Shown here: piece after piece, positions 129-11,526 of the stretch
Layout: every line of letters starts with the position of its first letter
Numbering within the stretch: the stretch's first letter is position 1
Virus genome (UHGV): UHGV-1887975
Direction: 5' to 3' (one strand)
From: a virus
DNA length: 11,593 nucleotides
Notes under the pieces: model-generated
Told to the model about the DNA's origin: nothing
What the model saw: the letters and a program-made list of their open reading frames with translations, nothing else
Databases searched by the model: none
Position numbers and translations under genes: made by a program

Positions 129-141
129 CAATGACCCTTGA
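129..141. repeat. 13-bp exact direct repeat CAATGACCCTTGA, left copy; candidate left attachment-site core
   Basis: Identical 13-mer at 129..141 and 11514..11526, the latter immediately distal to the integrase gene. A single 13-mer match in an 11.6 kb window is not by itself significant. Confidence 0.3.
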
Positions 142-258
142 ATAAAGTCTATTCGGTTTTCTTTAGATGTTCGCCTCACATAATCTTCAAGTGATGTTCC
201 TTACATCTCCCTAGAGCGTTAAGATAGTTAACTGATTGAGTTTTCAGGGTATGAAAGG

Positions 259-924
259 ATGAGCAACACTACTGATTGGGGAAGCATGATAGCCAACATA
301 GTTATGGCTACTACCGCTGTCTGGGCTGCATTCAAAGCTAATGACTGGTTTAAAACCAAGCGTCTTGAGAGTGCTGAAAACTTCTATAAAGAAGTACACA
401 ATCTCCATAAACGTTACTATTCAGCTATCCAATACGTTGAGGATTCAAGAAGAATATTTGATAGTCAGTATGGGTTGCATTCGCCAATATCTGAACCTAA
501 AGACAAGTCATTGCAATGGGAGGTTAAATCGAACTCTTACAAAATCATCGCTGAACTAGATTATCTGGCATCGTCACTACAAATGATGGATGCAATGGGT
601 AACAAACTTAGCCCTAAATCGGCTTCACTGGTTAGTGATATGATGGAAGCACATGGACGATTCTGTAATGATGTGATGAACTTCAATGACTCAGTTTGGA
701 AGGTTATAAGGGCAGGTATAACTGAAGAGAACATCCCACATACGCGAGGCTATGTGAACGGCGATTACATGGCTATCCTTACCAGTATGGATGAACCTGT
801 AAGAATATCTTTTAAGTTAAAAGAAATCAGTTTTAAAGATTTTTACTTACATGAAACTACTATGCAGTCAGTAATAACGAGGCTGAAATCGCTTATCGCC
901 AGAACAGGTAAAAACAGGACATAA
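259..924 (+). CDS. Hypothetical protein, 221 aa, with predicted N-terminal transmembrane anchor
   Basis: Uninterrupted 666-nt ORF. Residues about 10-26 (IANIVMATTAVWAAF) form a hydrophobic helix followed by a charged soluble domain. The AAAGGA purine run abuts the ATG at 259 with essentially no spacer, so the true start may be the in-frame ATG at 286. No recognisable family motif. Confidence 0.55.
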   Translation: MSNTTDWGSMIANIVMATTAVWAAFKANDWFKTKRLESAENFYKEVHNLHKRYYSAIQYVEDSRRIFDSQYGLHSPISEPKDKSLQWEVKSNSYKIIAELDYLASSLQMMDAMGNKLSPKSASLVSDMMEAHGRFCNDVMNFNDSVWKVIRAGITEENIPHTRGYVNGDYMAILTSMDEPVRISFKLKEISFKDFYLHETTMQSVITRLKSLIARTGKNRT

Positions 925-1112
925 ACAGGTTAGTACCTATGCAATTTAACGGTATTTTTCCAAGTATCTATGCAATCCTACACAGATTCTATACAGTATC
1001 GACATAGTTTCCTTTTGGTATAACTTATTGAAATATATAAAGAATCTGTGAAGCCCCTTTTCAGGGTAAACTGTATCGTGTTAGTCGTCCCTCTCTCGAC
1101 TCCTAGAAAAGT

Positions 1113-1142
1113 GCTATATACAGGGCTATATAATGCTATATA
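1113..1142. repeat. Three tandem copies of GCTATATA (starts 1113, 1125, 1135)
   Basis: Direct reading: GCTATATAcaggGCTATATAatGCTATATA, spacing 12 and 10 bp. Contains a TATAAT hexamer at 1129..1134. Confidence 0.5.
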
Positions 1143-2591
1143 GATAGTTGGTCACATGGTGTAACTATCAAACTACTTAACAGTTTCCTACGTGAAAGTT
1201 AGAAAGTGATAGTTATAGTTACCTTGTCAAATCTTCGTAGTCCATTCTTAAAAAATCACTTACAGACACCTTAATATCTATACAGATTTCATGTAGAACA
1301 CGATTAGTGCGTAGAAGAGTCATTATGTTAAAAACGAACTGTATACGTATCAGTACTGATTTATAAGGGTTTTGTGTATTTGAAGATAAGAGGCTATACA
1401 GCACCTTGAGAGCATGTCTTCTAAGTCATTGATACATAAGGTCACAGAAGTTTGTGTCTGTTACAGAGAAAACTGGATAGGACTTCACAGAACTACAAAA
1501 TGTTACAGCTATTGATAGGTGAAATCTTCTTGATAGATGCCTTGAAGTGTGGTGAAGGTTTCTTGAGGTGGAGCTAAACAGATGCTATGAAGAAAGTCAA
1601 TAGTTGGTTATAGATATTTTAACTGCTTTTGCAAAGGGGGTGCTGTATCGTGAATCTGGGGTACTTAACAGCCATCAATCATGAGGTAGATTCTACCGAA
1701 TCAACTGTGTAGATATTTTTTAAGATTATCGGTGAAGGGGGAATGCAGAGGGGGGTACTACGATTTTTATAAAAATTTTCAGAAGCCAAATAACTACTGT
1801 GTATATTTTGCACAATCCTGCCAAACCTCATAGAAAGCTCTGTAGCGAGTTTTAACCCCATTTTTAGGGGTAACCTGTAGGGATGTACCACCCACCTTAA
1901 AATAAAGGGGTAAAATCGCTTAGAATGCGTTACAGAGCGTCTGAGAAGCTATATTCACAGATTTTACTAAAGTCTCAGACTTCTAAGTAGTCTTTTTAAC
2001 GGGAGGGTTCTTTCTCATGTATCACCCTCTCTTCCCGCTAAGTAAGCTACACAGACCTAGAGAACATGCCTTCACAGCATCTATATCAGGTCAGATTTAG
2101 AGGGTTTTGATAGAATTTTCAAAGGTACTTGACAGATAACTATGAAGTTGTTAGGAAGAATTGTTTAACGGGAGGAAAGATACGATATAACCCGAAGGGA
2201 AAGTATCATCTTAACAGTGATTGTAAGAGATACCTGAAAAGCTCCTCTTAACAGAACTACCAAGAAGAGAGGGAACGATAAGACCAGAGGTAGTGACCTG
2301 TTAAATAGTTCGTTTCAAAGCTCTTAAGAGTCTGTTAAGTAAGGGCTATGTGAACAATCTTACCATTTTGTCAATGCTCTTGTCTTTGACCTAAATCAAT
2401 AAAATGTATCGTTTGATATGGTTTTAAGCAAGATGGCTAAAAATCTTTTTAGAGGGGCGCTTCGCTTGTGTCACTATGTTCTTTCTCTCCCTGTCTAAGA
2501 GGGGGGTTACAGAGGTCTTTCAAGTCTCAATAGACAAACCGAGGAACGCAGGAAACCGAGGGAAGAAAAACTATTGTGATTACCCTGAACA

Positions 2592-2625
2592 AGGTCTGTA
2601 AAGGTCGTTTAAGAGGTCGGTTAAG
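2592..2625. repeat. Three tandem AGGTC-containing units of 10-12 bp (AGGTC at 2592, 2602, 2614); iteron-like
   Basis: Direct reading: aAGGTCtgtaa / AGGTCgtttaag / AGGTCggttaag. The last two units are 12 bp and differ at one position. Confidence 0.5.
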
Positions 2626-2749
2626 AAAGGAGCTTCCCTCTCTGGGGTTGTCGCTCTTCTCTCGCTTGGTGGATTGATTAGGGGGTATGTTATACAAGCC
2701 CAACTAAGAAGACCTCTGAAGCTTACCTGTGAAGAAGCTGAACAGCTAT

Positions 2750-2900
2750 TATATTGGGTGATTACAACTCATTGAAAAATAAGCATTTTTAGAAATCACT
2801 GTTAAGGTTGCAGAGTTGTCTGTGAGGAGACTTGTCTGCTCTCTATATTGGGTGGTTACAACTTATTGAAAAATAAGAACTTTTAGAAATCACTGTCAGA
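2750..2900. repeat. Pair of 57-bp imperfect direct repeats (2750..2806 and 2844..2900), 94-bp period
   Basis: Aligned by eye: TATATTGGGTGaTTACAACTcATTGAAAAATAAGcatTTTTAGAAATCACTGT versus TATATTGGGTGgTTACAACTtATTGAAAAATAAGaacTTTTAGAAATCACTGT, roughly 50 of 57 identical. Confidence 0.6.
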
Positions 2901-2998
2901 GAGGTGAATACTTGATAGATACAGCTTTCCGGTTCTGTCAAGTCATTTTTTAATAGATAGCATAAAATGCTAAAGATACCCCTATACCATCACGTACA

Positions 2999-3030
2999 GG
3001 GGGTTTTGAAGGGGGTTTAACGGGGGTCTG
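2999..3030. repeat. Three tandem G5-tract units (GGGGG at 2999, 3011, 3022)
   Basis: Direct reading: GGGGGTTTTGAA / GGGGGTTTAAC / GGGGGTCTGTG, spacing 12 and 11 bp. Overlaps the 3' end of the - strand small ORF. Confidence 0.5.
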
Positions 3031-3193
3031 TGTGGTCATTATCCTTAAGGTCAAGCGTCCATGTACGACCGAACAGTTTAAAGACAACAAGCACTCTGAC
3101 GAGGACGTAGCGAAGTAGCAGGCCTGCAATAAGTCCAATACCTCCACCAGCCCATACATCAGGTGACCCCAATTCTGGAGGGAGATTTACCAT
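3017..3193 (-). CDS. Putative small membrane protein, 58 aa (MVNLPPELGSPDVWAGGGIGLIAGLLLRYVLVRVLVVF...)
   Basis: Internal ATG of the track ORF 3017..3235 at 3191..3193 is preceded on the - strand by AAGGA about 7 nt upstream. It encodes a strongly hydrophobic glycine-rich helix of about 23 residues. It lies within locally GC-richer sequence, antisense to all neighbouring genes. Could be spurious. Confidence 0.35.
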   Translation of the reverse strand: MVNLPPELGSPDVWAGGGIGLIAGLLLRYVLVRVLVVFKLFGRTWTLDLKDNDHTDPR

Positions 3194-3410
3194 TAAATTT
3201 CCTTGTAAGACGCTCTCAATCGCATTCTGACACAAAAAAGTACCTGACCTTATAGTTGACCTGAAGAGGCCATTTAACTCGTTACAGAGCGATTGAAGAG
3301 GTCTGTGTGCAATGCAATAACCATGTGACCACTCTCATAGCCACGCCTCATATTTTACTCTCCCCATAGAACCATTATACCACAGATGTTAATGAAATGT
3401 TAAAAAGTGC

Positions 3411-3439
3411 TTGACATTAGTCTTTGAAAATGCTAGTAT
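3411..3439 (+). promoter_or_regulatory. Sigma70-type promoter: TTGACA, 17-bp spacer, TAGTAT
   Basis: Consensus -35 TTGACA at 3411..3416, 17-nt spacer, -10 TAGTAT at 3434..3439 (4 of 6 to TATAAT), about 48 bp upstream of the ATG at 3488. A TTAACAGAGG word sits at the expected transcription start. Confidence 0.55.
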
Positions 3440-3487
3440 TGTATATAAGTTAACAGAGGATTAACAATTATAAGGACTAGCTTATGA

Positions 3488-4042
3488 ATGAACGACAGAG
3501 AATTTAGAGCGATGCTTCAGGCATCAAGAGAACGCAACAAGCACAACTCCTACGCTTACACAAACAACCCCACCAGCTACGAACTACCAGCCTTTTCCAA
3601 ATCCGAACGTAAAAGCATTGAAGCGGTCATTCGTAGCATTACGCCACGAGGCAGATATATGCCAACACGCAAAACAACAAAGAATAACTTAAAAACTTTC
3701 TTGATGAGTTTTGACAGCTACGAACAATTACCGTCACGAATTGAAGATGTAATTATCGGCACTTGTCGCAGCTTTGGAAGGGATAACTATCACCGGAAAG
3801 TTTTCTATTTGCTTCGAAGCCTTGATGAGATTAACTCAAGCACAGTGACGAGCCATCTTCAAAGACAAGCAACCAGACTTAGCCACGAGCTACCATCTGA
3901 TAAGTATTGCGCTAATTTAACCACCATTTGCAATAAAGTTATCGAGACAATCAATCATCATGTTGGGGTTGGTAATATCAGCCTTACGACCAGTGAGCCA
4001 GACTTTGAATTTGACGTATACGCACAAGCAGAGGAATTTTAA
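3488..4042 (+). CDS. Hypothetical protein, 184 aa
   Basis: First gene after the predicted promoter; AAGGA about 10 nt upstream of the ATG. Basic, Ser/Thr/Arg-rich. No motif I can recognise. Confidence 0.65.
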   Translation: MNDREFRAMLQASRERNKHNSYAYTNNPTSYELPAFSKSERKSIEAVIRSITPRGRYMPTRKTTKNNLKTFLMSFDSYEQLPSRIEDVIIGTCRSFGRDNYHRKVFYLLRSLDEINSSTVTSHLQRQATRLSHELPSDKYCANLTTICNKVIETINHHVGVGNISLTTSEPDFEFDVYAQAEEF

Positions 4043-4043
4043 A

Positions 4044-4325
4044 ATGGGAAATAAACACACACTAACCAGAGTTACAAAGACAGCCTTTGAAGAACTTAAC
4101 CGAATCAAAAACATTACAGGTCTGCCACACTCAGCAGTGATGAAGCTTGCAATTAACCGTGATATTAACGAGCAGGATTTGCTTAATAGTCGTTTAGAGG
4201 CAGCAAGACACCATATCAGGATTAAGCAAGATGACCTTGATAGTCTGAAATCTTTAAATGCTTTTGGACTGGATTTAGCAAGGTTACTAAGTATCAAAAT
4301 TCACAAATTAGCGATGGAGGTTTAA
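4044..4325 (+). CDS. Hypothetical small protein, 93 aa (start moved to the RBS-supported ATG)
   Basis: Track ORF 3960..4325 would overlap the upstream gene by about 80 nt. The in-frame ATG at 4044 is preceded by GAGGAA (4031..4036) and begins 2 nt after the upstream stop. Its stop overlaps the next start (TAATG). Confidence 0.6.
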   Translation: MGNKHTLTRVTKTAFEELNRIKNITGLPHSAVMKLAINRDINEQDLLNSRLEAARHHIRIKQDDLDSLKSLNAFGLDLARLLSIKIHKLAMEV

Positions 4326-4711
4326 TGTATGACTTTTATAAACATCGTGACCATTTGGTAAGATTTGACGGTAAAGTCTGGAAAGACGTAACACAAACCA
4401 ATAAGCCCAAGTTTACCCACCAGCAATTAGCCTCAAGATTTGATATCTGGGCTGAAGCACAAAAAGATAATGGTGATTTCGAGTTTATCAGAGGTTTTGA
4501 TTATGCTTACGAAAGCGACCTTAAAGACGCCATTGAATTAATGGAGAACTTCAACTCTATTAAAAATAGTGACAAGCACAAAGCCAACGGTAACAGATAC
4601 GATAAAGATTTAATCATTGATGCAATCACCAAAGGACAATCACAAAGTTATATTTCTGAGAAATACGGCTTATCACGTAGTCAATACTACAAGATTAAAG
4701 CGTCTGTGTAA
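4325..4711 (+). CDS. Putative DNA-binding protein with C-terminal helix-turn-helix, 128 aa; possible transcriptional activator
   Basis: The C-terminal segment DKDLIIDAITKGQSQSYISEKYGLSRSQYYKIKASV has the classic pattern of a helix-turn-helix as found in small phage activators and sigma region-4-like domains. The start is translationally coupled to the upstream gene. Family assignment is an inference. Confidence 0.6.
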   Translation: MYDFYKHRDHLVRFDGKVWKDVTQTNKPKFTHQQLASRFDIWAEAQKDNGDFEFIRGFDYAYESDLKDAIELMENFNSIKNSDKHKANGNRYDKDLIIDAITKGQSQSYISEKYGLSRSQYYKIKASV

Positions 4712-4723
4712 GTCTGTGAGAAT

Positions 4724-4792
4724 GAGTGAGACTCAAAGATGAGCTACCCTATTACTAAGGTGTCTCACTCCCTCTGTAACCCGCATGGTTAC
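4724..4792 (+). promoter_or_regulatory. Two consecutive hairpin-forming inverted repeats in the gap between genes
   Basis: Perfect 9-bp inverted repeat GAGTGAGAC (4724..4732) / GTCTCACTC (4762..4770) with a 29-nt loop, followed by a 6-bp stem GTAACC (4776..4781) / GGTTAC (4787..4792) with a 5-nt loop. No U-tract follows either, so they are not classic terminators. Confidence 0.4.
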
Positions 4793-4849
4793 TGGCCTCA
4801 GAATGGCTATTTTGGCAGATTTAAGATGTGTTTTTATAGGATTTTAAAA

Positions 4850-5173
4850 ATGAATAATTTCCCACTACAGATTTTTATTGATACCGACACCGCCATGATG
4901 ATTCAGGCTTTCACTGATGTAGGTGTTAGCATTGACTTTGATAAGTTGTTAGAGTTAATGGCTGATNATNCNGANANCATCTNTGACTTTATTCACTCGG
5001 TGGAGTTTAACGAGCCTCGAATGATGTTACCAATTACAGACAGTAATATGAAAAGATTGGTTATTGAGCAAACGAACAAATACAGTATTTCCCCAGAGCA
5101 ATTTTTGAAAGGTGCTGTGACAATCCTGTACAGCGATAATATTTTGGTTACGGATTCCGTGAGGGTTCACTAA
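4850..5173 (+). CDS. Hypothetical protein, about 107 aa (alternative start 4739 gives 144 aa); contains ambiguous bases
   Basis: Track ORF 4739..5173. The ATG at 4739 lies inside the hairpin region, so the in-frame ATG at 4850 is preferred, but neither has a strong RBS. Codons 4967..4984 include N, so several residues are undefined. Confidence 0.45.
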   Translation: MNNFPLQIFIDTDTAMMIQAFTDVGVSIDFDKLLELMADXXXXIXDFIHSVEFNEPRMMLPITDSNMKRLVIEQTNKYSISPEQFLKGAVTILYSDNILVTDSVRVH

Positions 5174-5250
5174 TGGGCTTAATAATTGCTTGGACGTTGC
5201 TTGGCTTATTTGTTGGTTGCTGGGTGGGTAACACAGTAAATAAGAATTGA
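5173..5250 (+). CDS. Candidate micro-ORF encoding a 25-aa hydrophobic peptide (MGLIIAWTLLGLFVGCWVGNTVNKN)
   Basis: Its ATG overlaps the upstream stop (TAATG at 5171..5175), suggesting translational coupling. The peptide is almost entirely one transmembrane-like helix. Below the length cut-off of the ORF track and could be fortuitous. Confidence 0.3.
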   Translation: MGLIIAWTLLGLFVGCWVGNTVNKN

Positions 5251-5468
5251 TGTTATCAATCTGTTAAAAGCTGTTGACAAATAACCTTAAGCATGAGATG
5301 ATGGTAATAGGGGGCAACTCTTCCTGAATTAAACTATTAATCATTCTACATCAATGATAGTTATTCTGAGTTGGAAAGGTGCAATGCTTTTCGTCATGGC
5401 CTATTTAGCCCACACTAGATAGGCTATCTCAAAAAGTCTTTGTTTATTCATTGAATCCTTTACAGATT

Positions 5469-5496
5469 GCCCTAATCATGAGTTAGGGCGTTTTTT
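5469..5496 (+). terminator. Rho-independent terminator
   Basis: Perfect 7-bp stem GCCCTAA (5469..5475) / TTAGGGC (5483..5489), 7-nt loop, followed by G then TTTTTT (5491..5496). Confidence 0.65.
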
Positions 5497-5667
5497 AAGA
5501 GTTTTTAAAGAAATTTCTTCACCAGCCCTTTATAGCGTTTTAGTTATCTAGGGCTTTTTCAGCTTTTAAAAAGCATACTTGGCAAACGCTTTTAAGTCTC
5601 TTCTAAGTTCGTAGGCTGTCAGGTGTGCTTTTTAAAAACTGAATATTACTTAGAAGAGGAAAAAACA

Positions 5668-6378
5668 ATGACAAACGATTTATATATTAACGGCAGAAAG
5701 ATTGATAGCTTCGGGGACTGGTCACCACAGGGTGAACATCCGCTACATACTATTCAGCGTAAAGAACACGATGAAAGAATTAAGCTTGAGCAAGAGTTAA
5801 AGATGTCACCAAAGGTAATTTCCTTTGTGTCTCCTGAGCCTCAAGAAATGCCTGATGTATGCAAAACTGAAGCACTATTTAATCTTGAGCGTGAATATTA
5901 CCCACTGCTAAAAGCACAGCGTATTAAACTAGATGACGCTTACAGCAAAGTTACCCTGATGCAATCAGCTATTGAGCCATCAGAATTTGAGATTCAGGAT
6001 GAATTGTCACAGAAACCATTTGTCTATTACAAATATGAAGACAATGATGGTTTTGGTACTTTTCCTGAGAATATCCCAGACGTGATTAATAATCTTCCTG
6101 ATGGATATCGAATTGTGAAGATGGTTAAAGCTTCAAGAGGTGCTGGTCAGTTTATTTTCATGACCGATAGGAGCGATGAAGAACTCTGTGAAATTGCTAA
6201 ACAGAACATCTTAGCATCACGTAACAAGCAACTTGAAAATGTTAAGTTGTATCTCTCAAGAGAGCTTCAGGCTATGAAAGAGCTTGTTAGTGAATATGAA
6301 TCACAGAAGAAGATTGCTATGCAGGCTGATATTGAGCAGTTAGTGAAGATTTCTCAGAAATATGCAAAGGCACTTTAA
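5668..6378 (+). CDS. Hypothetical protein, 236 aa (start moved to the RBS-supported ATG)
   Basis: Track ORF starts at 5623. The in-frame ATG at 5668 is preceded by GAGGA (5656..5660) with 7-nt spacing. Acidic, with a coiled-coil-like C-terminus. No recognisable motif. Confidence 0.65.
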   Translation: MTNDLYINGRKIDSFGDWSPQGEHPLHTIQRKEHDERIKLEQELKMSPKVISFVSPEPQEMPDVCKTEALFNLEREYYPLLKAQRIKLDDAYSKVTLMQSAIEPSEFEIQDELSQKPFVYYKYEDNDGFGTFPENIPDVINNLPDGYRIVKMVKASRGAGQFIFMTDRSDEELCEIAKQNILASRNKQLENVKLYLSRELQAMKELVSEYESQKKIAMQADIEQLVKISQKYAKAL

Positions 6379-6402
6379 CTATGAATTAAAAGGAGGTGGT
6401 GA

Positions 6403-6606
6403 ATGATTGATTTAACAGAACGCTATGAGCTTATTAAAGCAATTAGTGAACGATTGAAAGAACAACCCAACAAACCAAAACGAATCAAATCATCCACCTC
6501 TAAGCAAAAGAATAGAATCAGAAGAATCGCTAAATGGTGTCTTGATAAATTACCAAGTGATTGTCAGATTGTCGGTGAAGATGGTAATTATTATCTGGTT
6601 AGGTAA
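6403..6606 (+). CDS. Hypothetical small basic protein, 67 aa
   Basis: Strong RBS AAGGAGG (6390..6396) 6 nt upstream of the ATG. Lys/Arg-rich centre (KPKRIKSSTSKQKNRIRRIAK). Followed by a terminator. Confidence 0.65.
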   Translation: MIDLTERYELIKAISERLKEQPNKPKRIKSSTSKQKNRIRRIAKWCLDKLPSDCQIVGEDGNYYLVR

Positions 6607-6631
6607 AAAGATTGGTTGGGTAAAAATCAAC

Positions 6632-6672
6632 GGGAGAGATTATCGAGTGACATCGGTAGCTCTCCCTTTTTT
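6632..6672 (+). terminator. Rho-independent terminator
   Basis: Stem GGGAGAG (6632..6638) / CTCTCCC (6660..6666) enclosing a 21-nt loop, followed directly by TTTTTT (6667..6672). Confidence 0.6.
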
Positions 6673-6702
6673 GTATATGAGATAGTCTTCTATCGAATCC
6701 TG

Positions 6703-6801
6703 TGTGCTACGTGATGATTCGGATAAGAATTATCCTCATGAAATCTGTAAAACTAATACCCACACTGAAAAATAGAATTTACGTACAACACGCTTAAAGA
6801 G
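6703..6801 (+). promoter_or_regulatory. Upstream regulatory cassette, copy 1: GTGTGCTACGTGA, ATACCCAC-N-AAAAAT, TTTACGTA, CACGCTTAAAGAG
   Basis: The same four blocks occur in the same order upstream of the gene at 9102. This copy carries an extra palindrome GGATAAGAATTATCC (6721..6735) between the first and second blocks. Confidence 0.55.
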
Positions 6802-6812
6802 GTGAAACATGA

Positions 6813-8936
6813 ATGAGCAAATTCACAGTTGATAGTTTTATCGTTGAGCTAGGCTTCAATGAAAACGTTATTAAGGGACTGCAAAGAGTTGAAAAGGCAG
6901 CTTTGCAGTCAGCACAAAGAATTGAAAAGAACCTAAATAAAGGTTTCAGGATTAATACAAAGCAGCTTGATAGTAATTTAACGGCTTCTTTAGGGCAGCT
7001 TGAAAGGAAGTTTAATAAGGCCTTTGACAAGATTGAACAGAGAGCAAGAAATACTAAAGCTTTCCAGTTTACCACCAGATTTAATGACACTGTTAATCCT
7101 CCAAAACAACCAAGACAGCCACGAATTAGCGGAAACAGAGCAATCACAGCAGCTTACTCAGCGAATATGAGCAAGCTAAAAGGCCTTAACCCAATTGTCG
7201 AGAAATACATTAAGAGTCAGTTTTACGGGCTATCTGCTAAAGCCGGGTCAATGGATTCTTCAAAATTCAATGAGAAGTTAGCTCAGTTAAACGCTTCAGT
7301 CAGAGAAGCAATTGCTAAAGCCAGAGGTCATACATCCACCAGCATTAATGGTGACAGAGCAGCTAATAGTCTTGATAACCTGTCTTCAGCAGCAGTTAAA
7401 ACAGCAGGTGCATTTATCTCAATGCAGGCTGTATTAGCCAGTTATCAGAAGATTATGGAAATTGGTTTACAGCGTGCAAGTGCTGAACGTTCAATTGATT
7501 TCGTATTTGATAAAGATGCAGGTCAGGTAAAAGAGTTCACAAAGTCATTAGCTCAAACAACGGGTTTAGATATCGCTGAACTGCAATCACAGTTTGCTGG
7601 TTTTGGTGCTTCAGCTAAAGAGTCTATGGGTATTCAAGGTTCTGAAGAACTTTTTAAAAATATGATTGGCTATGCTCGTCTGATGGGGAGAAGTGAAGAA
7701 GAGATTAAGCGAGCACTGACAGCATTATCACAGATGGCTGGTAAGGGTCAGATTATGGCTGAAGAGCTTAAGGGGCAACTGGCTGAAGCTGTTCCTGGTA
7801 TGGTTCAGGTATTCGCTAAAGCAACCGGAAAGACTGAACAGGAATTATTTGATGCCATGAAGAAGGGGGCTTTAAAATCTGCCGATACTCTTCAGAAGGT
7901 CACTCAGGAACTGAATAAACAAATCACCGCTAAAGGTGGCTGGAAAGCCATTTCAGAAAGTACTCAGGCACAACTAGGGAACTTGAAAAACTCTTGGAAT
8001 ACCACGCTTGATAGTATCTTCAGAGGTTCTGAAAATGGTCTGCAAGATTTTACACGAAGCCTAACAACGCTTTTAAACGCTCTTGGTGGAAGTGGTAAAA
8101 GTCTTGGTGAATCTCTTGGTAGTCTCATGACTTCTATGTCACATGGTGTCGATAGTCTGACCGATATTAGTTACAAGGTGCGAGCGTTCTTTGATGAGGT
8201 GACATTAGCTTACCGTTCACTAAATGACACTCAGAGGAAAATTGTTGATGGTTTATCTGATGGGTTAATTGATGGTTTGAAGATGCTTGCTGTGGCTGTT
8301 ACTGCTCAAAAGGCTGCAAATGTAGCTGGAGGCTTGTTAAACCTTGCAAATGCTGTTACTTCATTCGGTGATGCTGTTAATAAAGCTAAAGCTGGCAAGG
8401 CTGGTTCTTCAGGTGGTGCGCTAAGTAAAGTCGGTAGAGTTGTCCTTTATGCTGAGTTGGTAAACTTTGCTCTTGATAATTTAAACCCTGAAGCAGCTAA
8501 GAATCCGAACTTACACCAATCAGGTATTGGTACAGAAACAAACTTCAATCCTGAATACAAAGGCGATTCTAAACCAAACCAAATTAATGAGGGGTGGGCT
8601 AAGATTGGTAGTTCTATCGCTGACTGGTTTAATGGTGCAGCTAATAAAATTGCTAACTTACAAGAACCGATGAATAACTTCGTAAATAACACACAATCAA
8701 CTCCACCAGCTATCGACACGGTGAATATCAATGCTCAATTAGCTATGGCTGTATCAGAGTTAGGAAGAAAGGTTGATGCTTTAACAGTAGAAGCTCGGAA
8801 GCCTTTATCAGTTAATATCAAAGGTGAAGCAATTGTTAGGCCGGATGAGCCATCTTTCTTTAATTTCAATCAATCAGCTAATGACCAGTTCACGCAGGAT
8901 ATGCTCTTAAGTTCAAGCTATCCAGAGGAAGAATGA
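6813..8936 (+). CDS. Tape-measure-domain protein, 707 aa (putative phage tail length tape-measure protein)
   Basis: The central segment GYARLMGRSEEEIKRALTALSQMAGKGQIMAEELKGQLAEAVPGMVQVFAKATGKTEQELFDAMKKGALKSADTL matches, as I recall it, the conserved tape-measure signature of lambda gpH-type proteins. N-terminus is coiled-coil-like; C-terminal third is Asn/Gln/Ser-rich low complexity. RBS AGAGGTG about 10 nt upstream. Confidence 0.75.
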   Translation: MSKFTVDSFIVELGFNENVIKGLQRVEKAALQSAQRIEKNLNKGFRINTKQLDSNLTASLGQLERKFNKAFDKIEQRARNTKAFQFTTRFNDTVNPPKQPRQPRISGNRAITAAYSANMSKLKGLNPIVEKYIKSQFYGLSAKAGSMDSSKFNEKLAQLNASVREAIAKARGHTSTSINGDRAANSLDNLSSAAVKTAGAFISMQAVLASYQKIMEIGLQRASAERSIDFVFDKDAGQVKEFTKSLAQTTGLDIAELQSQFAGFGASAKESMGIQGSEELFKNMIGYARLMGRSEEEIKRALTALSQMAGKGQIMAEELKGQLAEAVPGMVQVFAKATGKTEQELFDAMKKGALKSADTLQKVTQELNKQITAKGGWKAISESTQAQLGNLKNSWNTTLDSIFRGSENGLQDFTRSLTTLLNALGGSGKSLGESLGSLMTSMSHGVDSLTDISYKVRAFFDEVTLAYRSLNDTQRKIVDGLSDGLIDGLKMLAVAVTAQKAANVAGGLLNLANAVTSFGDAVNKAKAGKAGSSGGALSKVGRVVLYAELVNFALDNLNPEAAKNPNLHQSGIGTETNFNPEYKGDSKPNQINEGWAKIGSSIADWFNGAANKIANLQEPMNNFVNNTQSTPPAIDTVNINAQLAMAVSELGRKVDALTVEARKPLSVNIKGEAIVRPDEPSFFNFNQSANDQFTQDMLLSSSYPEEE

Positions 8937-8952
8937 TTTCTTATATATATCC

Positions 8953-9026
8953 GTGTGCTACGTGAAATCTTCTGAACGGATATACCCACTAAAAATTATT
9001 TTTTACGTAGCTCACGCTTAACAGAG
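8953..9026 (+). promoter_or_regulatory. Upstream regulatory cassette, copy 2: GTGTGCTACGTGA, ATACCCACTAAAAAT, TTTACGTA, CACGCTTAACAGAG
   Basis: Same four blocks as 6703..6801 in the same order and similar spacing, but without the palindrome insert. Ends about 75 nt upstream of the ATG at 9102. Confidence 0.55.
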
Positions 9027-9101
9027 AAAATACTTATATATCAAAGGTTTGGTTAAAAATGATTAAAATACACTAAGCCTTTGAAATCAAAGGAGAATTT
9101 A

Positions 9102-9872
9102 ATGATTTACACTAATCAGCTTCGTTACAGTGGCAAAGATGGTGTTTACTTCCATCTACAAGGCCAACCAGATAATTTCTTGTCACTATCAGCAACTGAG
9201 AACATGGAATATGACAGCCCTATGATGGTGACCACTCAAAATATGCAATCAGGGCAGACTGTAACAGATAATGTAATGCGTTCACCAAGAACTATTTCAA
9301 TCAGTGGTGTGGTTGTGGTTGGTGAATCCGGTAGTATCCTTATCTCAAGAGATAATAAGCTGGTGGAAAACTTCATAGACACTCTTGAAAACTGGCGTGA
9401 CCAGAAGCAAATTATCTCAGTTGTCTGTAAAGATGGTATTAAGATTGACGACTCAATTATTACAAGCTTTAAAGCCTCTAAAGATGTTGGTATTTCAAAC
9501 GGCCTAAGAATCCAGCTAACTTTTCAGGAAATCAACTTTAAAGCTATCGTAGGGCAAACTGATATTTCGACTGCTACTGGCAAGACCGCTACCACGAATG
9601 ATGGTGGTGCTACTTCTAAGAAGAATACAGGGAATACTACGACAAGTCTTGGAAGCCCTATGCTGACCTGTAAAGAGCTTTTTAGCTATTCGGCAAGTAA
9701 GTTATCAGATGAAGCGCTAAAAGCCCGTGTAACGTGCTCTAAGAGCGTTAGCGTTAAAAATGGTGAGAGCACCTTCACAGCCTCAGCTAATGAGCAAGCT
9801 TCAAAGGTGCTTAAGTCGGGTAATGCTTTACGGAAGTACTCTGTGAATCCGAATAAGAAGGGCACTTATTGA
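9102..9872 (+). CDS. Hypothetical protein, 256 aa; possible tail-associated structural protein by position only
   Basis: The track ORF begins at a TTG (9081). The ATG at 9102 has AAGGAG (9090..9095) at 6-nt spacing. Ser/Thr/Gly-rich. Assignment as tail-associated rests only on its position after the tape-measure-like gene. Confidence 0.65.
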
Positions 9873-9876
9873 GACA

Positions 9877-9899
9877 TAAAAAGGGGCTTCATAGCCCCT
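9877..9899. terminator. Terminator hairpin between convergent genes
   Basis: Perfect 7-bp GC-rich stem AGGGGCT (9882..9888) / AGCCCCT (9893..9899) with a 4-nt loop. AAAAA (9877..9881) on the + strand gives a U-tract after the stem for the - strand transcript (integrase); a weaker A/T stretch follows for the + strand. Confidence 0.6.
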
Positions 9900-9904
9900 G
9901 AAAA

Positions 9905-11425
9905 TTACAGTTGATAAGCGTCAATATCCAGTAGCTCTTTATCAGCAATTTCAAAGATTGGTGACCCATCATTTAGCGGTAACGGGTTTGTAGGTATGGT
10001 TATTTCAGTGTCGTTCTGTAGCGTTACAGTTACCGAATCCTTACCCAATGTCAGCCCCTTTAGATGCTTGGACAAAATCAACTGACACTCGACACGACCC
10101 GCTTTAGTTGTCAGGTCAATATCTTTAAGCTGGGGTAGTTCCTTATCAGTGAGTGAAGCCTTACGCCTCATGTTATCAATCGTGGTCTGTAGCTCTGTGC
10201 GCTTCTGGTTCAGTTCCTTAAGCTGAATTTTTAGTTCATCAATATCATCCATCTCAAGAAGTAGGGCGGTAGCTTTCTTGATTCTGGTTGTGACAATTTC
10301 AACCTCATGCTGTAGAGATGCAATCTTCCCCTCTGCTTCTCCATCATTCCCCACGTCAATCATCCCCAGAAAATTATCAATCATCCACTTATCAAACGGT
10401 TTACGCTTCAACGGAGGAACATCACAGCGACCATCAAGATGGTTATTGCACCGATAAACGCCCTGATACTTATTCTTAGTCCCTGTAGGGTGAACACTAG
10501 CCCCGCACTGACACCTAAACAGACCTTTGAAGATGTTAATCGTTAATGGATTATCACTTGCAGGTGTACGGCCTATACGGTTCTTACCAAGAATCTCTTG
10601 AGCTTTATTGAACGTTGAAGCATCTATAGCGGCTTCGTAGTAGTTCGGTATAGCGGGGCGGTCATTACGTTGTGATGCTGGTAACGTGCCTATCGTTGTC
10701 TCTGACCTTAAGATGGTGCGTACAGAGTGAACACTAAACCCGTTAGCATCTTTACGGCGACTAAACGACTTTATACCGTTGCTTTGAAGGTGACGGGCGA
10801 TGTTATGCAGACTTTCACCACTTAGCAGCAGCTTGAAAATCAGTCTTACAGTCTCAGCGTGTTCATTGAGTTTAAAAGTATCGGGGTCAATCCATCCGGG
10901 AACCATCTTTGTTAAACGTTGTTCACCAGCAAGGGCAAGTTTTGCACGTTGCTCCCATTTCTGAGAAACACGGAAAGACTTCTGCTTAGATTCCTGATGC
11001 GCTATGTAGGCTTTGACACGCTGGATGATTGAGATTCCTAAATCATCGGCTAAAGCATCCTTTGTGTAGATAAGACCATCTTGTAGCGTGTGAATCTCTA
11101 ACCCGTTGCCTAAGATGCGATTCATCAAGGCTTCTGTTTCAAGGTGTTCTAAGCGGCCTATACGGTCGATACTCTCAACAAGCAAAATCGTACCTTCTGG
11201 AAACTCCCCAGACTCAATACGGGCTAACATGTCACCAAACTGACCAGTAAGATGCTTACCTTTGTAACCGGATAGGCCTTCATCACTGAAAGACGCTACT
11301 ACTTGAGCATCGCTATTCTTCTTCAGCCACTGCTTGAACAGGTCGTTTTGTCGTCTGGTTGAATCTGCACCTTCAGCGCCTTGTATAGCTGAACTGTACC
11401 GAAGGTATGTAATTACGCTCCTCAT
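9905..11425 (-). CDS. int: Large serine recombinase (site-specific integrase), 506 aa
   Basis: N-terminal resolvase-type catalytic domain with candidate nucleophilic Ser in YLRYSSAIQ, a D-x-G-x-SG motif (SDEGLSGYKG) and LVESIDRIGR resembling the resolvase DRLGR box. A large recombinase domain follows, then a Cys-rich zinc-ribbon-like segment (CQCG...C...C) and a C-terminal coiled coil. This is the typical large-serine-recombinase architecture. GGGAG RBS upstream on the - strand. Confidence 0.9.
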   Translation of the reverse strand: MRSVITYLRYSSAIQGAEGADSTRRQNDLFKQWLKKNSDAQVVASFSDEGLSGYKGKHLTGQFGDMLARIESGEFPEGTILLVESIDRIGRLEHLETEALMNRILGNGLEIHTLQDGLIYTKDALADDLGISIIQRVKAYIAHQESKQKSFRVSQKWEQRAKLALAGEQRLTKMVPGWIDPDTFKLNEHAETVRLIFKLLLSGESLHNIARHLQSNGIKSFSRRKDANGFSVHSVRTILRSETTIGTLPASQRNDRPAIPNYYEAAIDASTFNKAQEILGKNRIGRTPASDNPLTINIFKGLFRCQCGASVHPTGTKNKYQGVYRCNNHLDGRCDVPPLKRKPFDKWMIDNFLGMIDVGNDGEAEGKIASLQHEVEIVTTRIKKATALLLEMDDIDELKIQLKELNQKRTELQTTIDNMRRKASLTDKELPQLKDIDLTTKAGRVECQLILSKHLKGLTLGKDSVTVTLQNDTEITIPTNPLPLNDGSPIFEIADKELLDIDAYQL

Positions 11426-11488
11426 GGTGATAAACTCCCATGCAATTGATTCTCATTTAAAGATAAGCTTATAACCATTATGGCTAAT

Positions 11489-11526
11489 GCTACAATGCCG
11501 AATAGCTACAATACAATGACCCTTGA
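11489..11526. repeat. Integrase-proximal repeat cluster: GCTACAATG / GCTACAAT / ACAATG, then the right copy of CAATGACCCTTGA; candidate attachment-site region
   Basis: Direct reading of 11489..11526. The 13-mer at 11514..11526 is identical to 129..141. Sequence to the right becomes GC-rich (cctcgccgcttcccctggccgacg...). Confidence 0.4.

What the first reader, a model, noticed from the sequence alone, without database searches (positions are those of the whole stretch)
2592..2625. Iteron-like triple AGGTC array at about helical periodicity
Three AGGTC-centred units of 10-12 bp in direct tandem, two of them near-identical 12-mers (AGGTCGTTTAAG and AGGTCGGTTAAG). Direct repeats spaced at one helical turn are the usual signature of binding-site arrays for replication initiators or oligomerising regulators. 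AGGTC also recurs nearby (2511-2518, 3297-3304).
Basis: seen in the sequence. Interest (0 to 1): 0.5.

Follow-up and report, generated by a model that had tools for sequence, protein, structure and literature searches.

The report
Repeat array in phage-mimicking island DNA
The three AGGTC repeats are real and form one of several short, evenly spaced repeat arrays in a 2.5-kb gene-free stretch of an 11.4-kb mobile island of E. coli that copies parts of the genome-end region and two tail genes of Felix O1-like viruses, so the array is most likely a protein docking site used to exploit such a virus, although no binding protein has been shown.

Summary
AGGTC starts at 2592, 2602 and 2614, and the last two 12-mers differ at one base.

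The array sits in a 2.5-kb non-coding region (925-3487) that no genetic code opens and that has no Rfam or tRNA match. Four of the window's five such phased triples lie in this region.

The window is an 11.4-kb island inserted at the tonB start codon of E. coli, with a large serine recombinase. Its tape-measure and tube-initiator genes are homologous to those of Felixounavirus.

Blocks of the non-coding region are homologous to the phage region that holds the 581-bp direct terminal repeat (DTR). That phage region is packed with TGTTA repeats spaced exactly 11 bp. The phage DTR also holds an apparent counterpart of this array.

Across 44 related loci the array is a tandem repeat of variable copy number: 2-4 units of G-G-T-C-G-G-TTAAGA(A), period 12 or 13, with a conserved TTAAGA core.

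Best reading (confidence 0.42): a phased protein-binding array in a helper-phage-mimicking control region of a candidate satellite. An island-owned replication origin, as in the Vibrio satellite PLE, and a neutral slippage repeat remain live rivals. No binder is identified.

The parts
2592..2625 (+). The finding: three AGGTC-headed units (10, 12, 12 bp). This is the window's allele of a tandem repeat of variable copy number with a G(G/T)TTAAGA core.
   Evidence: 19 alleles in 44 loci; counterpart in the phage DTR
2626..2641 (+). Block AAAGGAGCTTCCCTCT directly after the array. It overlaps the 15-nt bin 2625-2639 (GAAAGGAGCTTCCCT), which is among the best conserved of the region (0.96 identity over 24 variants). 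It can form a short hairpin.
925..3016 (.). Main part of the non-coding region. There is no ORF under any stop-codon reassignment, no Rfam family and no tRNA. It is rich in short recurrent words (ACAGA, GGGGT, AGAGG, TACAG, AGGTC, GTTAA).
903..930 (+). AACAGG x3 array, period about 11. It resembles AAATACAGGCATAAACAGG to the right of the phage DTR.
   Evidence: sequence read
1110..1142 (+). GCTATATA x3 array, period 12/10. It resembles the CTATATAG clusters of the phage non-coding region.
1596..1730 (+). Block 73-75% identical to Felixounavirus/Mooglevirus non-coding DNA. It aligns across the right boundary of the phage direct terminal repeat.
1681..1702 (+). Hairpin ATGA-GGTAG-ATT-CTACC-GAATC, one member of a hairpin family with compensatory stems.
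2259..2320 (+). Block 80-84% identical to the interior of the phage DTR (Pr103Blw 255-318).
2299..2339 (+). Four-unit degenerate TGTTA-type array (TGTTA, CGTTT, TCTTA, TGTTA at spacings 12, 11, 11).
2750..2896 (+). Two 53-nt AT-rich direct repeats (2750-2802 and 2844-2896, 92% identical).
2998..3027 (+). AGGGGGTTT x3 array, period 11-12. It overlaps the 3' end of the small minus-strand gene.
3017..3193 (-). Small gene for a 58-aa hydrophobic protein. It is well conserved (about 0.9) and annotated in some relatives.
3374..3439 (.). Divergent sigma-70-like promoters: minus strand 3403-3374 (11/12 matches) and plus strand 3411-3439 (10/12 matches), upstream of the 3488 operon.
3488..4711 (+). Only the 128-aa protein has a family hint, a weak C-terminal helix-turn-helix match.
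6716..6739 (-). Second copy of the hairpin family (GGATAA-TTC-TTATCC), upstream of the tape-measure gene.
6813..8936 (+). Tape-measure protein. Its N-terminal 478 aa are 32% identical to the Felixounavirus tape-measure protein.
9081..9872 (+). Tail tube initiator protein. It is 69% identical to the Felixounavirus gene that follows the tape-measure gene, and matches PDB 9NDY (Bas63 gp18) at E 4.8e-112.
9905..11425 (-). Large serine recombinase (integrase).
129..141 (+). Left copy of the 13-bp direct repeat CAATGACCCTTGA. The right copy is at 11514-11526, overlapping the tonB start. The island is about 142-11513.

Best explanation
The AGGTC triple is this island's allele of a short tandem repeat of variable copy number. 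The unit is about 12-13 bp, AGGTCGGTTAAGA, in 2-4 copies.

The repeat belongs to the conserved, repeat-rich non-coding region at the left end of an 11.4-kb integrative island of Escherichia. The island carries a large serine recombinase. It also carries copies of the tape-measure and tube-initiator genes of Felix O1-like virulent myoviruses. Its non-coding region shares several blocks with the phage region that holds the direct terminal repeat (DTR), including an apparent counterpart of this very array.

I infer that the array is a phased docking site for an oligomerising DNA-binding protein that also acts on the phage's terminal-repeat region. Through such sites the island would be treated like phage DNA during infection. 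I lean towards recognition for end formation and packaging, with replication as the second option.

Shown: the repeat, its family-wide variation, the homologies, and the phage DTR location.

Inferred: protein binding, the identity of the binder, and the satellite life style.
For: - The array is real and sits among four phased arrays in 2.5 kb.
- The region is non-coding under every genetic code, with no Rfam or tRNA match. RNA folding is worse than shuffles on both strands, z = +1.5, so a DNA-level role is favoured.
- The region is kept in 442 of 5426 complete E. coli genomes, at several integration sites, always with the same gene order.
- Over 24 variants the array scores 0.80-0.84 identity and the next 15 nt score 0.96, against a regional mean of 0.82.
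- 44 loci give 19 alleles with 2-4 units. All keep (G/T)TTAAGA-like cores.
- Link to the phage:
  - The tube initiator is 69% identical, and the tape-measure protein 32% identical, to the adjacent Felixounavirus genes.
  - Window 1596-1730 is 73-75% identical to phage non-coding DNA.
  - 21 of 25 BLAST hits from 14 island non-coding regions on the whole 88-kb phage Pr103Blw fall in its 2.25-kb terminal region.
  - That region holds the annotated 581-bp DTR.
  - The phage region carries 28 TGTTA in 1.67 kb, with 10 adjacent pairs spaced exactly 11 bp, against 2 such pairs on the same strand in the other 86 kb.
  - The phage DTR contains CTTTTAAGAGGTATGTTTAAGAGTTCACTAAGAAAGGA, which aligns with the island array and its 3' flank.
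Against: - No binding protein is identified, and nothing shows that the island is induced, replicated or packaged by any phage.
- The array-to-phage alignment is weak on its own: 80% over 40 nt, E 0.016 against a 6-kb subject.
- The homologous blocks are not in the same order as in the phage.
- The units score poorly against a matrix built from the phage TGTTA(A/G) sites, 3.8-5.0 bits.
- The period is 12-13 bp rather than the phage's strict 11 bp, which fits one shared binder poorly.
- The AGGTC half of the unit is enriched in the island regions but not in the phage region. This hints at an island-specific factor.
- Variation in copy number is also what slippage produces without selection.
- No homologue of the left DTR boundary was found in the islands.
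Confidence: 0.42

Rival explanations
1. The array is an iteron set of the island's own replication origin, bound by an island-encoded initiator. The parallel is the Vibrio satellite PLE, where one repeat type in a 2.7-kb non-coding region is bound by RepA.
For: - The architecture parallels PLE: a large serine recombinase, a repeat-rich non-coding region of 2.5-2.7 kb, and a virulent myovirus as partner (PMC7145576).
- Iteron number is often variable.
- AGGTC/GACCT is enriched in island non-coding regions but not in the phage region, which suggests an island-specific factor.
- Several conserved island proteins have no assigned function.
Against: - No Rep, primase or helicase family is detectable in any island protein.
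- The model of the 184-aa protein has no fold match.
- There is no perfect DnaA box, and no AT-rich stretch abuts the array; the nearest lie 130-160 bp away.
- Units of 12-13 bp are short for iterons.
- The array lies about 860 bp from the nearest operon start.
Confidence: 0.22
2. The array is a functionally neutral micro-repeat. It would have arisen by duplication and slippage inside phage-derived DNA, and would persist only because it lies next to conserved elements.
For: - Copy number varies from 2 to 4, and the period differs between alleles (12 or 13 bp).
- The first unit is not conserved in type B alleles.
- Mobile palindrome and hairpin insertions are tolerated inside the array.
- Conservation of the array is only average for the region.
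- Taken alone, the pattern arises by chance in about 1% of shuffles.
Against: - The TTAAGA core is retained in all 19 alleles, including the most diverged ones.
- At least two units are always present.
- Four phased arrays cluster in one conserved non-coding region, against about 0.04 expected.
- A similar array sits in the phage DTR.
Confidence: 0.2
3. The units are binding sites of the host response regulator ArcA, or of another OmpR/PhoB-type winged-helix protein. These proteins bind TGTTA-type direct repeats head to tail.
For: - ArcA-P binds 10-bp direct repeats with a TGTTA core at 11 bp centre-to-centre. TGTAA and TGTCA occur as natural variants, and sites hold 2-5 repeats (PMC4173790).
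- The phage terminal region fits this architecture very well.
- In the window the array can be read as TGTAA / TTTAA / GGTTA at exactly 11 + 11 bp.
Against: - The middle unit lacks the critical G of the core.
- The commonest alleles have 13-bp spacing, and ArcA-P failed to bind a repeat displaced by 1 bp.
- The island region has only one 11-bp TGTTA pair per strand.
Confidence: 0.06
4. The array is part of a structured non-coding RNA or of a transcribed regulatory leader.
For: - The region is long, conserved and non-coding.
- Strand composition is asymmetric: 10 GGGGG against 0 CCCCC on the plus strand.
- RNAalifold proposes a long-range helix AGAGGGAAG / CTTCCCTCT that encloses the array.
Against: - No Rfam family matches.
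- Folding energy is worse than shuffles on both strands, z = +1.5.
- The proposed helix shows only one-sided changes and almost no compensatory pairs.
- Units are gained and lost freely inside it.
Confidence: 0.04

Closest known systems
[quoted passage not shown]
   Same: Both are small integrative islands with a large serine recombinase. Both have a non-coding region of about 2.5 kb carrying several families of short repeats. Both are linked to a virulent myovirus rather than to a temperate phage. In PLE one repeat type is a bound iteron (PMC7145576).
   Different: No sequence homology to PLE was seen or tested beyond family searches. No RepA_N or any other initiator is recognisable here. This island carries tail genes (tape measure and tube initiator) and DNA blocks copied from its presumed helper. 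Nothing about its induction, replication or transfer is known.
TGTTA(A/G) 11-bp arrays and the TTTAAGAGGT array in the direct-terminal-repeat region of Felixounavirus/Mooglevirus phages (for example Pr103Blw, MW481326)
   Same: Both are direct repeats with a (T/G)GTTAAG or TTTAAGA core and a phasing of roughly one helical turn, in a gene-free region. The flanking blocks are homologous.
   Different: The phage arrays are much longer (about 26 units), strictly 11-bp phased, and lack the AGGTC half of the unit. The island array has 2-4 units at 12-13 bp. I found no published function for the phage arrays in the library searched.
ArcA-P direct-repeat operators of E. coli (icdA type)
   Same: Head-to-tail direct repeats with a TGTTA/TGTAA-like core, a variable number of repeats, and cooperative filling (PMC4173790).
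   Different: The cores of the finding's units are degenerate, and the spacing in most alleles is 13 bp, which ArcA-P does not tolerate.
cos/pac mimicry by phage satellites (P4 with P2 cos; cos-type PICIs) and the short-repeat arrays that flank the T7 terminal repeat
   Same: The idea that a satellite carries the helper's end or packaging region, and that phages with direct terminal repeats have arrays of short repeats next to the repeat. Both points rest on my own knowledge and were not checked here.
   Different: For this island no terminus, cleavage or packaging has been observed. The homology is patchy and rearranged rather than a clean copy of a site.

Membership tests
Replication-origin iterons | Three or more direct repeats of one sequence in tandem at regular spacing | tested here: inconclusive
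   There are 2-4 units of 12-13 bp. The first unit is degenerate or absent in type B alleles, and spacing is 10/12 or 13 bp. The units are shorter than classical 17-22-bp iterons (that range is from my own knowledge).
Replication-origin iterons | A cognate initiator gene in the same element | tested here: not met
   No Rep, primase or helicase family appears in Pfam, PHROGs, NCBIfam or PADLOC for any island protein. The 184-aa protein model has no fold match. An unrecognisable initiator cannot be excluded.
Replication-origin iterons | An adjacent AT-rich unwinding element and/or DnaA boxes | tested here: not met
   There is no perfect DnaA box in 925-3487. The nearest AT-rich 40-mers lie at 2392 and 2759, 130-160 bp from the array.
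Replication-origin iterons | Initiator binding, and dependence of replication on the repeats | not testable with these tools
   This needs a gel shift or footprint and a replication assay.
ArcA-P (OmpR/PhoB-type) direct-repeat site | TGTTA-like core in each repeat | tested here: inconclusive
   In the 11-bp register the cores are TGTAA, TTTAA and GGTTA. Only the first matches a documented variant.
ArcA-P (OmpR/PhoB-type) direct-repeat site | 11-bp (or 22-bp) centre-to-centre spacing | tested here: not met
   Spacing is 11 + 11 bp in type A alleles only. It is 13 bp between units in the commonest type B alleles. A shift of +1 bp abolished ArcA-P binding at icdA.
Phage satellite (PLE/PICI/P4 sense) | An integrase and defined ends, a size far below a phage genome, and no complete virion gene set | tested here: met
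   The island has a large serine recombinase and 13-bp flanking repeats at tonB. It is 11.37 kb. It has only tape-measure and tube-initiator genes, with no capsid or terminase genes.
Phage satellite (PLE/PICI/P4 sense) | A specific link to a helper phage | tested here: inconclusive
   Protein and DNA homologies point specifically to Felixounavirus/Mooglevirus. Homology is not dependence.
Phage satellite (PLE/PICI/P4 sense) | Helper-dependent induction, replication and packaging into virions | not testable with these tools
   None of 13 metagenome contigs checked (8.5-14.4 kb held) showed a terminal overlap that would indicate a circular form. No literature on satellites of Felix O1-like phages was found.
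Terminase recognition / genome-end region of a DTR phage | Location at, and homology to, the helper's physical genome end | tested here: inconclusive
   Island blocks match the interior and the right end of the DTR and the 130 bp beyond it (phage positions 245-709). They do not match the left boundary, and their order is rearranged.
Terminase recognition / genome-end region of a DTR phage | Cleavage or binding by terminase at the site | not testable with these tools
   This needs sequencing of virion DNA ends or biochemistry.

The most novel reading that the evidence does not exclude
The island family, present in about 8% of complete E. coli genomes, is a so-far undescribed satellite of virulent Felix O1-like myoviruses. 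It would bring its own tape-measure and tube-initiator proteins and carry a reshuffled copy of the helper's terminal-repeat region. The AGGTC/TTAAGA array and its sister arrays would be the cis-acting docking sites through which helper proteins, or the host regulator ArcA that the phage arrays resemble, replicate or package island DNA.
Probability: 0.3. Interest if true: 0.8.

Novelty: new variant of a known kind. Interest (0 to 1): 0.55.

Why it matters
Satellites of strictly virulent phages are known from very few systems, with PLE and ICP1 as the model. They have been a rich source of anti-phage mechanisms. If this island is such a satellite, three things would follow:

- There would be a tractable E. 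coli counterpart for Felix O1-like phages, which are widely used for Salmonella and E. coli typing, biocontrol and therapy.
- The repeat arrays would be the handles for finding the proteins that recognise the ends of these phage genomes, whose function is not described in the literature I searched.
- About one E. coli strain in twelve might interfere with these phages.

If the array is only a slippage repeat, it still marks a conserved, unexplained 2.5-kb non-coding region.

Tried and rejected
- **Recoded genes.** Open reading frames were listed with TAG, TGA or TAA reassigned. No long frame opens across 925-3487.
- **Known RNA or tRNA.** Rfam at E up to 1 gave only a chance miRNA hit elsewhere in the window. 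ARAGORN found nothing.
- **Structured RNA at the array.** Folding is worse than shuffles on both strands, and RNAalifold found almost no compensatory pairs.
- **Plasmid relatives.** The plasmid collection gave no match.
- **Function of the small proteins:**
  - Pfam, PHROGs, NCBIfam and PADLOC gave no significant family. The exception is a weak helix-turn-helix match in the 128-aa protein.
  - PDB sequence searches were empty or spurious.
  - The AlphaFold model of the 184-aa protein (pLDDT 62) had no fold match, best E 1.4.
  - The single-sequence model of the 93-aa protein was an uninformative pair of long helices. My reading of it as a ribbon-helix-helix protein therefore remains untested.
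  - Homologue searches returned only close Escherichia, Shigella and a few Salmonella-labelled relatives, with no annotation beyond 'transposase'.
- **SpLE2.** I guessed that the O157 copy might be Sakai element SpLE2. The papers place SpLE2 at sbcB, not yecE, so I dropped the guess.
- **Circular excised forms.** None of 13 metagenome contigs checked has a terminal overlap.
- **Phage site matrix.** A matrix built from the phage TGTTA(A/G) sites scores the finding's units only 3.8-5.0 bits. The units are not canonical members of that phage motif.
- **Hairpin in Pr103Blw.** A search for the hairpin family in that phage found none.

Full report
**1. The observation**

AGGTC starts at 2592, 2602 and 2614. 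The units are AGGTCTGTAA, AGGTCGTTTAAG and AGGTCGGTTAAG. Tandem Repeats Finder reports 2602-2626 with period 12 and score 43.

I tested chance with 500 dinucleotide-preserving shuffles of the window.
- Some 5-mer triple at 10-12 bp spacing occurs in 17% of shuffles.
- Some near-perfect tandem 10-13-mer occurs in 36%.
- Both occur at the same place in 1.2%.

The more telling result is the clustering. The window holds five such triples, against 0.19 expected per window. Four of them (903, 1113, 2592, 2999) lie in one 2.5-kb stretch. AGGTC/GACCT is also about threefold enriched there: 14 copies against about 5 expected, reached by none of 2000 shuffles. The same enrichment appears in most related islands.

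**2. What surrounds the array**

Positions 925-3487 have no long ORF under the standard code or with any single stop codon reassigned. They have no tRNA and no Rfam match. The only likely gene inside is a 58-aa hydrophobic protein on the minus strand at 3017-3193, which is annotated in some relatives.

The window is a chromosomal island of E. coli. Comparison with K-12 places it at the tonB start codon, flanked by the 13-bp direct repeat CAATGACCCTTGA at 129-141 and 11514-11526. The island is therefore about 142-11513.

Its recognisable genes are:
- a tape-measure protein (6813-8936);
- a Dit-like protein (9081-9872);
- a large serine recombinase (9905-11425, minus strand).

**3. The link to Felix O1-like phages**

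Protein evidence:
- The Dit-like protein is 69% identical to the gene that follows the tape-measure gene in Felixounavirus Pr103Blw.
- It matches the tube initiator gp18 of Felixounavirus Bas63 (PDB 9NDY) at E 4.8e-112.
- The tape-measure protein is 32% identical over 478 residues to the Felixounavirus tape-measure protein.

DNA evidence:
- Window 1596-1730 is 73-75% identical to an unannotated region of 39 phage records; the 20 listed are Felix O1-like (organism counts: Salmonella 18, Escherichia 13, Citrobacter 5, Shigella 3).
- In Pr103Blw that gene-free region lies between convergent gene blocks and contains the annotated 581-bp direct terminal repeat, determined with PhageTerm (PMC8303462).
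- The island block aligns across the right DTR boundary.
- Further blocks match the DTR interior (window 2259-2320, 80-84% identity) and the sequence just right of the DTR.
- As a specificity control, I searched the non-coding regions of 14 island variants against the whole 88-kb phage. 21 of 25 hits fell in the 2.25 kb of terminal non-coding DNA.
- The blocks are not colinear with the phage, and nothing matches the left DTR boundary.

**4. Repeat arrays in the phage region**

- TGTTA(A/G) occurs 26 times on one strand of the Pr103Blw region (1.7 expected) and 20 times in SFPB (1.3 expected).
- 44 of the 130 plus-strand copies in the whole Pr103Blw record lie in 2.5% of its length.
- Ten adjacent TGTTA pairs in Pr103Blw, and nine in SFPB, are spaced exactly 11 bp. 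The same strand has two such pairs in the remaining 86 kb.
- The island region shares these words at lower density: TGTTA(A/G) 8 + 6 copies against about 2.5 expected per strand, and CTATA(C/T)AG 4 against 0.1.
- Three of its four phased arrays resemble phage arrays by eye: AACAGG, CTATATA and TTAAGA.
- The finding's own array aligns with a three-unit array inside the phage DTR, CTTTTAAGAGGTATGTTTAAGAGTTCACTAAGAAAGGA. That match is weak taken alone (E 0.016).

**5. How the array varies**

The non-coding region occurs in 442 of 5426 complete E. coli genomes. It is found at the tonB, yecE and ymdF loci, always upstream of the same gene series. Variable cargo genes (a small recombinase, an AP2/ERF-like protein, a Dam methylase) are inserted in its left half. 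It also occurs in E. albertii and in gut metagenomes.

Between the invariant GTAAAG and GGAGCT, 44 loci give 19 alleles.
- There are 2, 3 or 4 units.
- Type A (this window) is GTCGTTTAAGA-GGTCGGTTAAGAA, with period 12.
- Type B is GGCTGGTTAAGAA-(GGTCGGTTAAGAA)n, with period 13.
- Rarer units include GATTGTCAAGAA and GACTGGTTAGGA.
- Some alleles carry a 23-nt palindrome inside the array, with or without a 26-nt hairpin.

Over 24 distinct variants the array columns are 0.80-0.84 identical to the window. The next 15 nt (GAAAGGAGCTTCCCT) reach 0.96, the 100 nt upstream reach 0.57-0.77, and the regional mean is 0.82. The core and the 3' junction are therefore kept, while number and spacing are free.

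**6. Mechanism**

RNA structure is unlikely. A DNA-level, protein-binding role fits three things: the phased arrays, the conserved cores and the variable number.

I cannot settle who binds.
- For a helper-phage factor: the homology to the terminal-repeat region.
- For an island factor: the AGGTC half of the unit is island-specific, and the PLE precedent shows a 2.7-kb repeat-rich region that holds RepA iterons (PMC7145576).
- Against an island origin: no initiator, DnaA box or adjacent AT-rich element is found.
- For the host regulator ArcA-P: the phage arrays match its published site architecture strikingly well, with a TGTTA core, 11 bp centre-to-centre and 2-5 repeats (PMC4173790).
- Against ArcA-P at this array: the 13-bp spacing of most alleles.

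I commit to helper mimicry. The array would be one of the cis sites by which the island is handled like the phage's terminal region, with packaging or end formation first and replication second. My confidence is about 0.4.

**7. Novelty**

I found no paper on the function of the Felix O1 non-coding region or on satellites of Felix O1-like phages. The array itself is a new member of a familiar class of short binding-site repeats. The element around it looks like a new variant of the phage-satellite theme. All functional steps remain inferred.

Noticed in passing
window 1681-1702 (+) and 6716-6739 (-); L005, L009, L011, L013, L014, L016, L017; phages L001 394, L002 2585: A hairpin family (C/T)ATGA-GG[stem]-loop-[stem']CC-GAATCA(A/T)C. 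Its flanks are conserved, and its stems differ between copies but are always fully complementary: GGTAG/CTACC, GGATAA/TTATCC, GGATG/CATCC, GGTTTAT/ATAAACC. Copies occur in both orientations. One sits right next to the DTR boundary of some Felix O1-like phages but is absent from Pr103Blw. In several islands a copy is inserted inside the finding's array. TGA and TCA in the flanks can pair, leaving a GAA bulge. Its function is unknown; it could be a recognition hairpin or a tiny mobile element.
   Followed up: partly
Pr103Blw terminal region (L018 1-1212, L019 2985-4022) and SFPB (L002 1545-3182): The direct-terminal-repeat region of Felix O1-like phages carries about 25 TGTTA(A/G) repeats on one strand, mostly spaced exactly 11 bp. 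This is the published binding architecture of the host anaerobic regulator ArcA-P. I found no mention of it in the papers searched.
   Followed up: partly
window 6813-8936 and 9081-9872: The island carries its own tape-measure and tube-initiator genes, in the same order as in Felixounavirus. The tape-measure C-terminal third is unrelated to the phage's. The island might remodel or sabotage helper tails.
   Followed up: partly
window 4967, 4970, 4972, 4975, 4977, 4983: Six ambiguous bases (N) lie inside ORF 4739-5173, so its translation contains X residues.
   Followed up: no
window about 1200-2160, compared with L004, L006-L017: The left half of the non-coding region is a cargo hot spot. Relatives carry a small serine recombinase or invertase, an AP2/ERF-like protein or a Dam methylase there. 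This window has no gene in that position, but has an extra 221-aa gene (259-924) at the island's left end.
   Followed up: partly
window 925-3487: There is a strong strand asymmetry of G runs: 10 GGGGG against 0 CCCCC on the plus strand. A(A/G)GGGG(G/T) recurs, including the array at 2998-3027.
   Followed up: no
window 2750-2802 and 2844-2896: Two 53-nt AT-rich direct repeats lie 94 bp apart. Copy number appears to vary between islands.
   Followed up: no
window 1821-1982 and 3202-3305; L004 11616-11777: These two stretches of the non-coding region are related to each other in inverted orientation. Both match an intergenic stretch downstream of the HNH endonuclease gene in other islands.
   Followed up: no
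window 2510-2535 and relatives: A hairpin after GTTACAG has a conserved TTTCAA(A) loop and covarying stems: GAGGT/ACCTC in some islands, CAGGGC/GCCCTG in others. It is poorly formed in this window.
   Followed up: no
L005, L013, L014, L035, L038, L040, L041, L048 (array region): A 23-nt palindromic insertion (TAGGGATTGGTAACAATACCAAT) splits the last repeat unit. In some loci it in turn hosts the 26-nt hairpin, giving nested mini-insertions.
   Followed up: no
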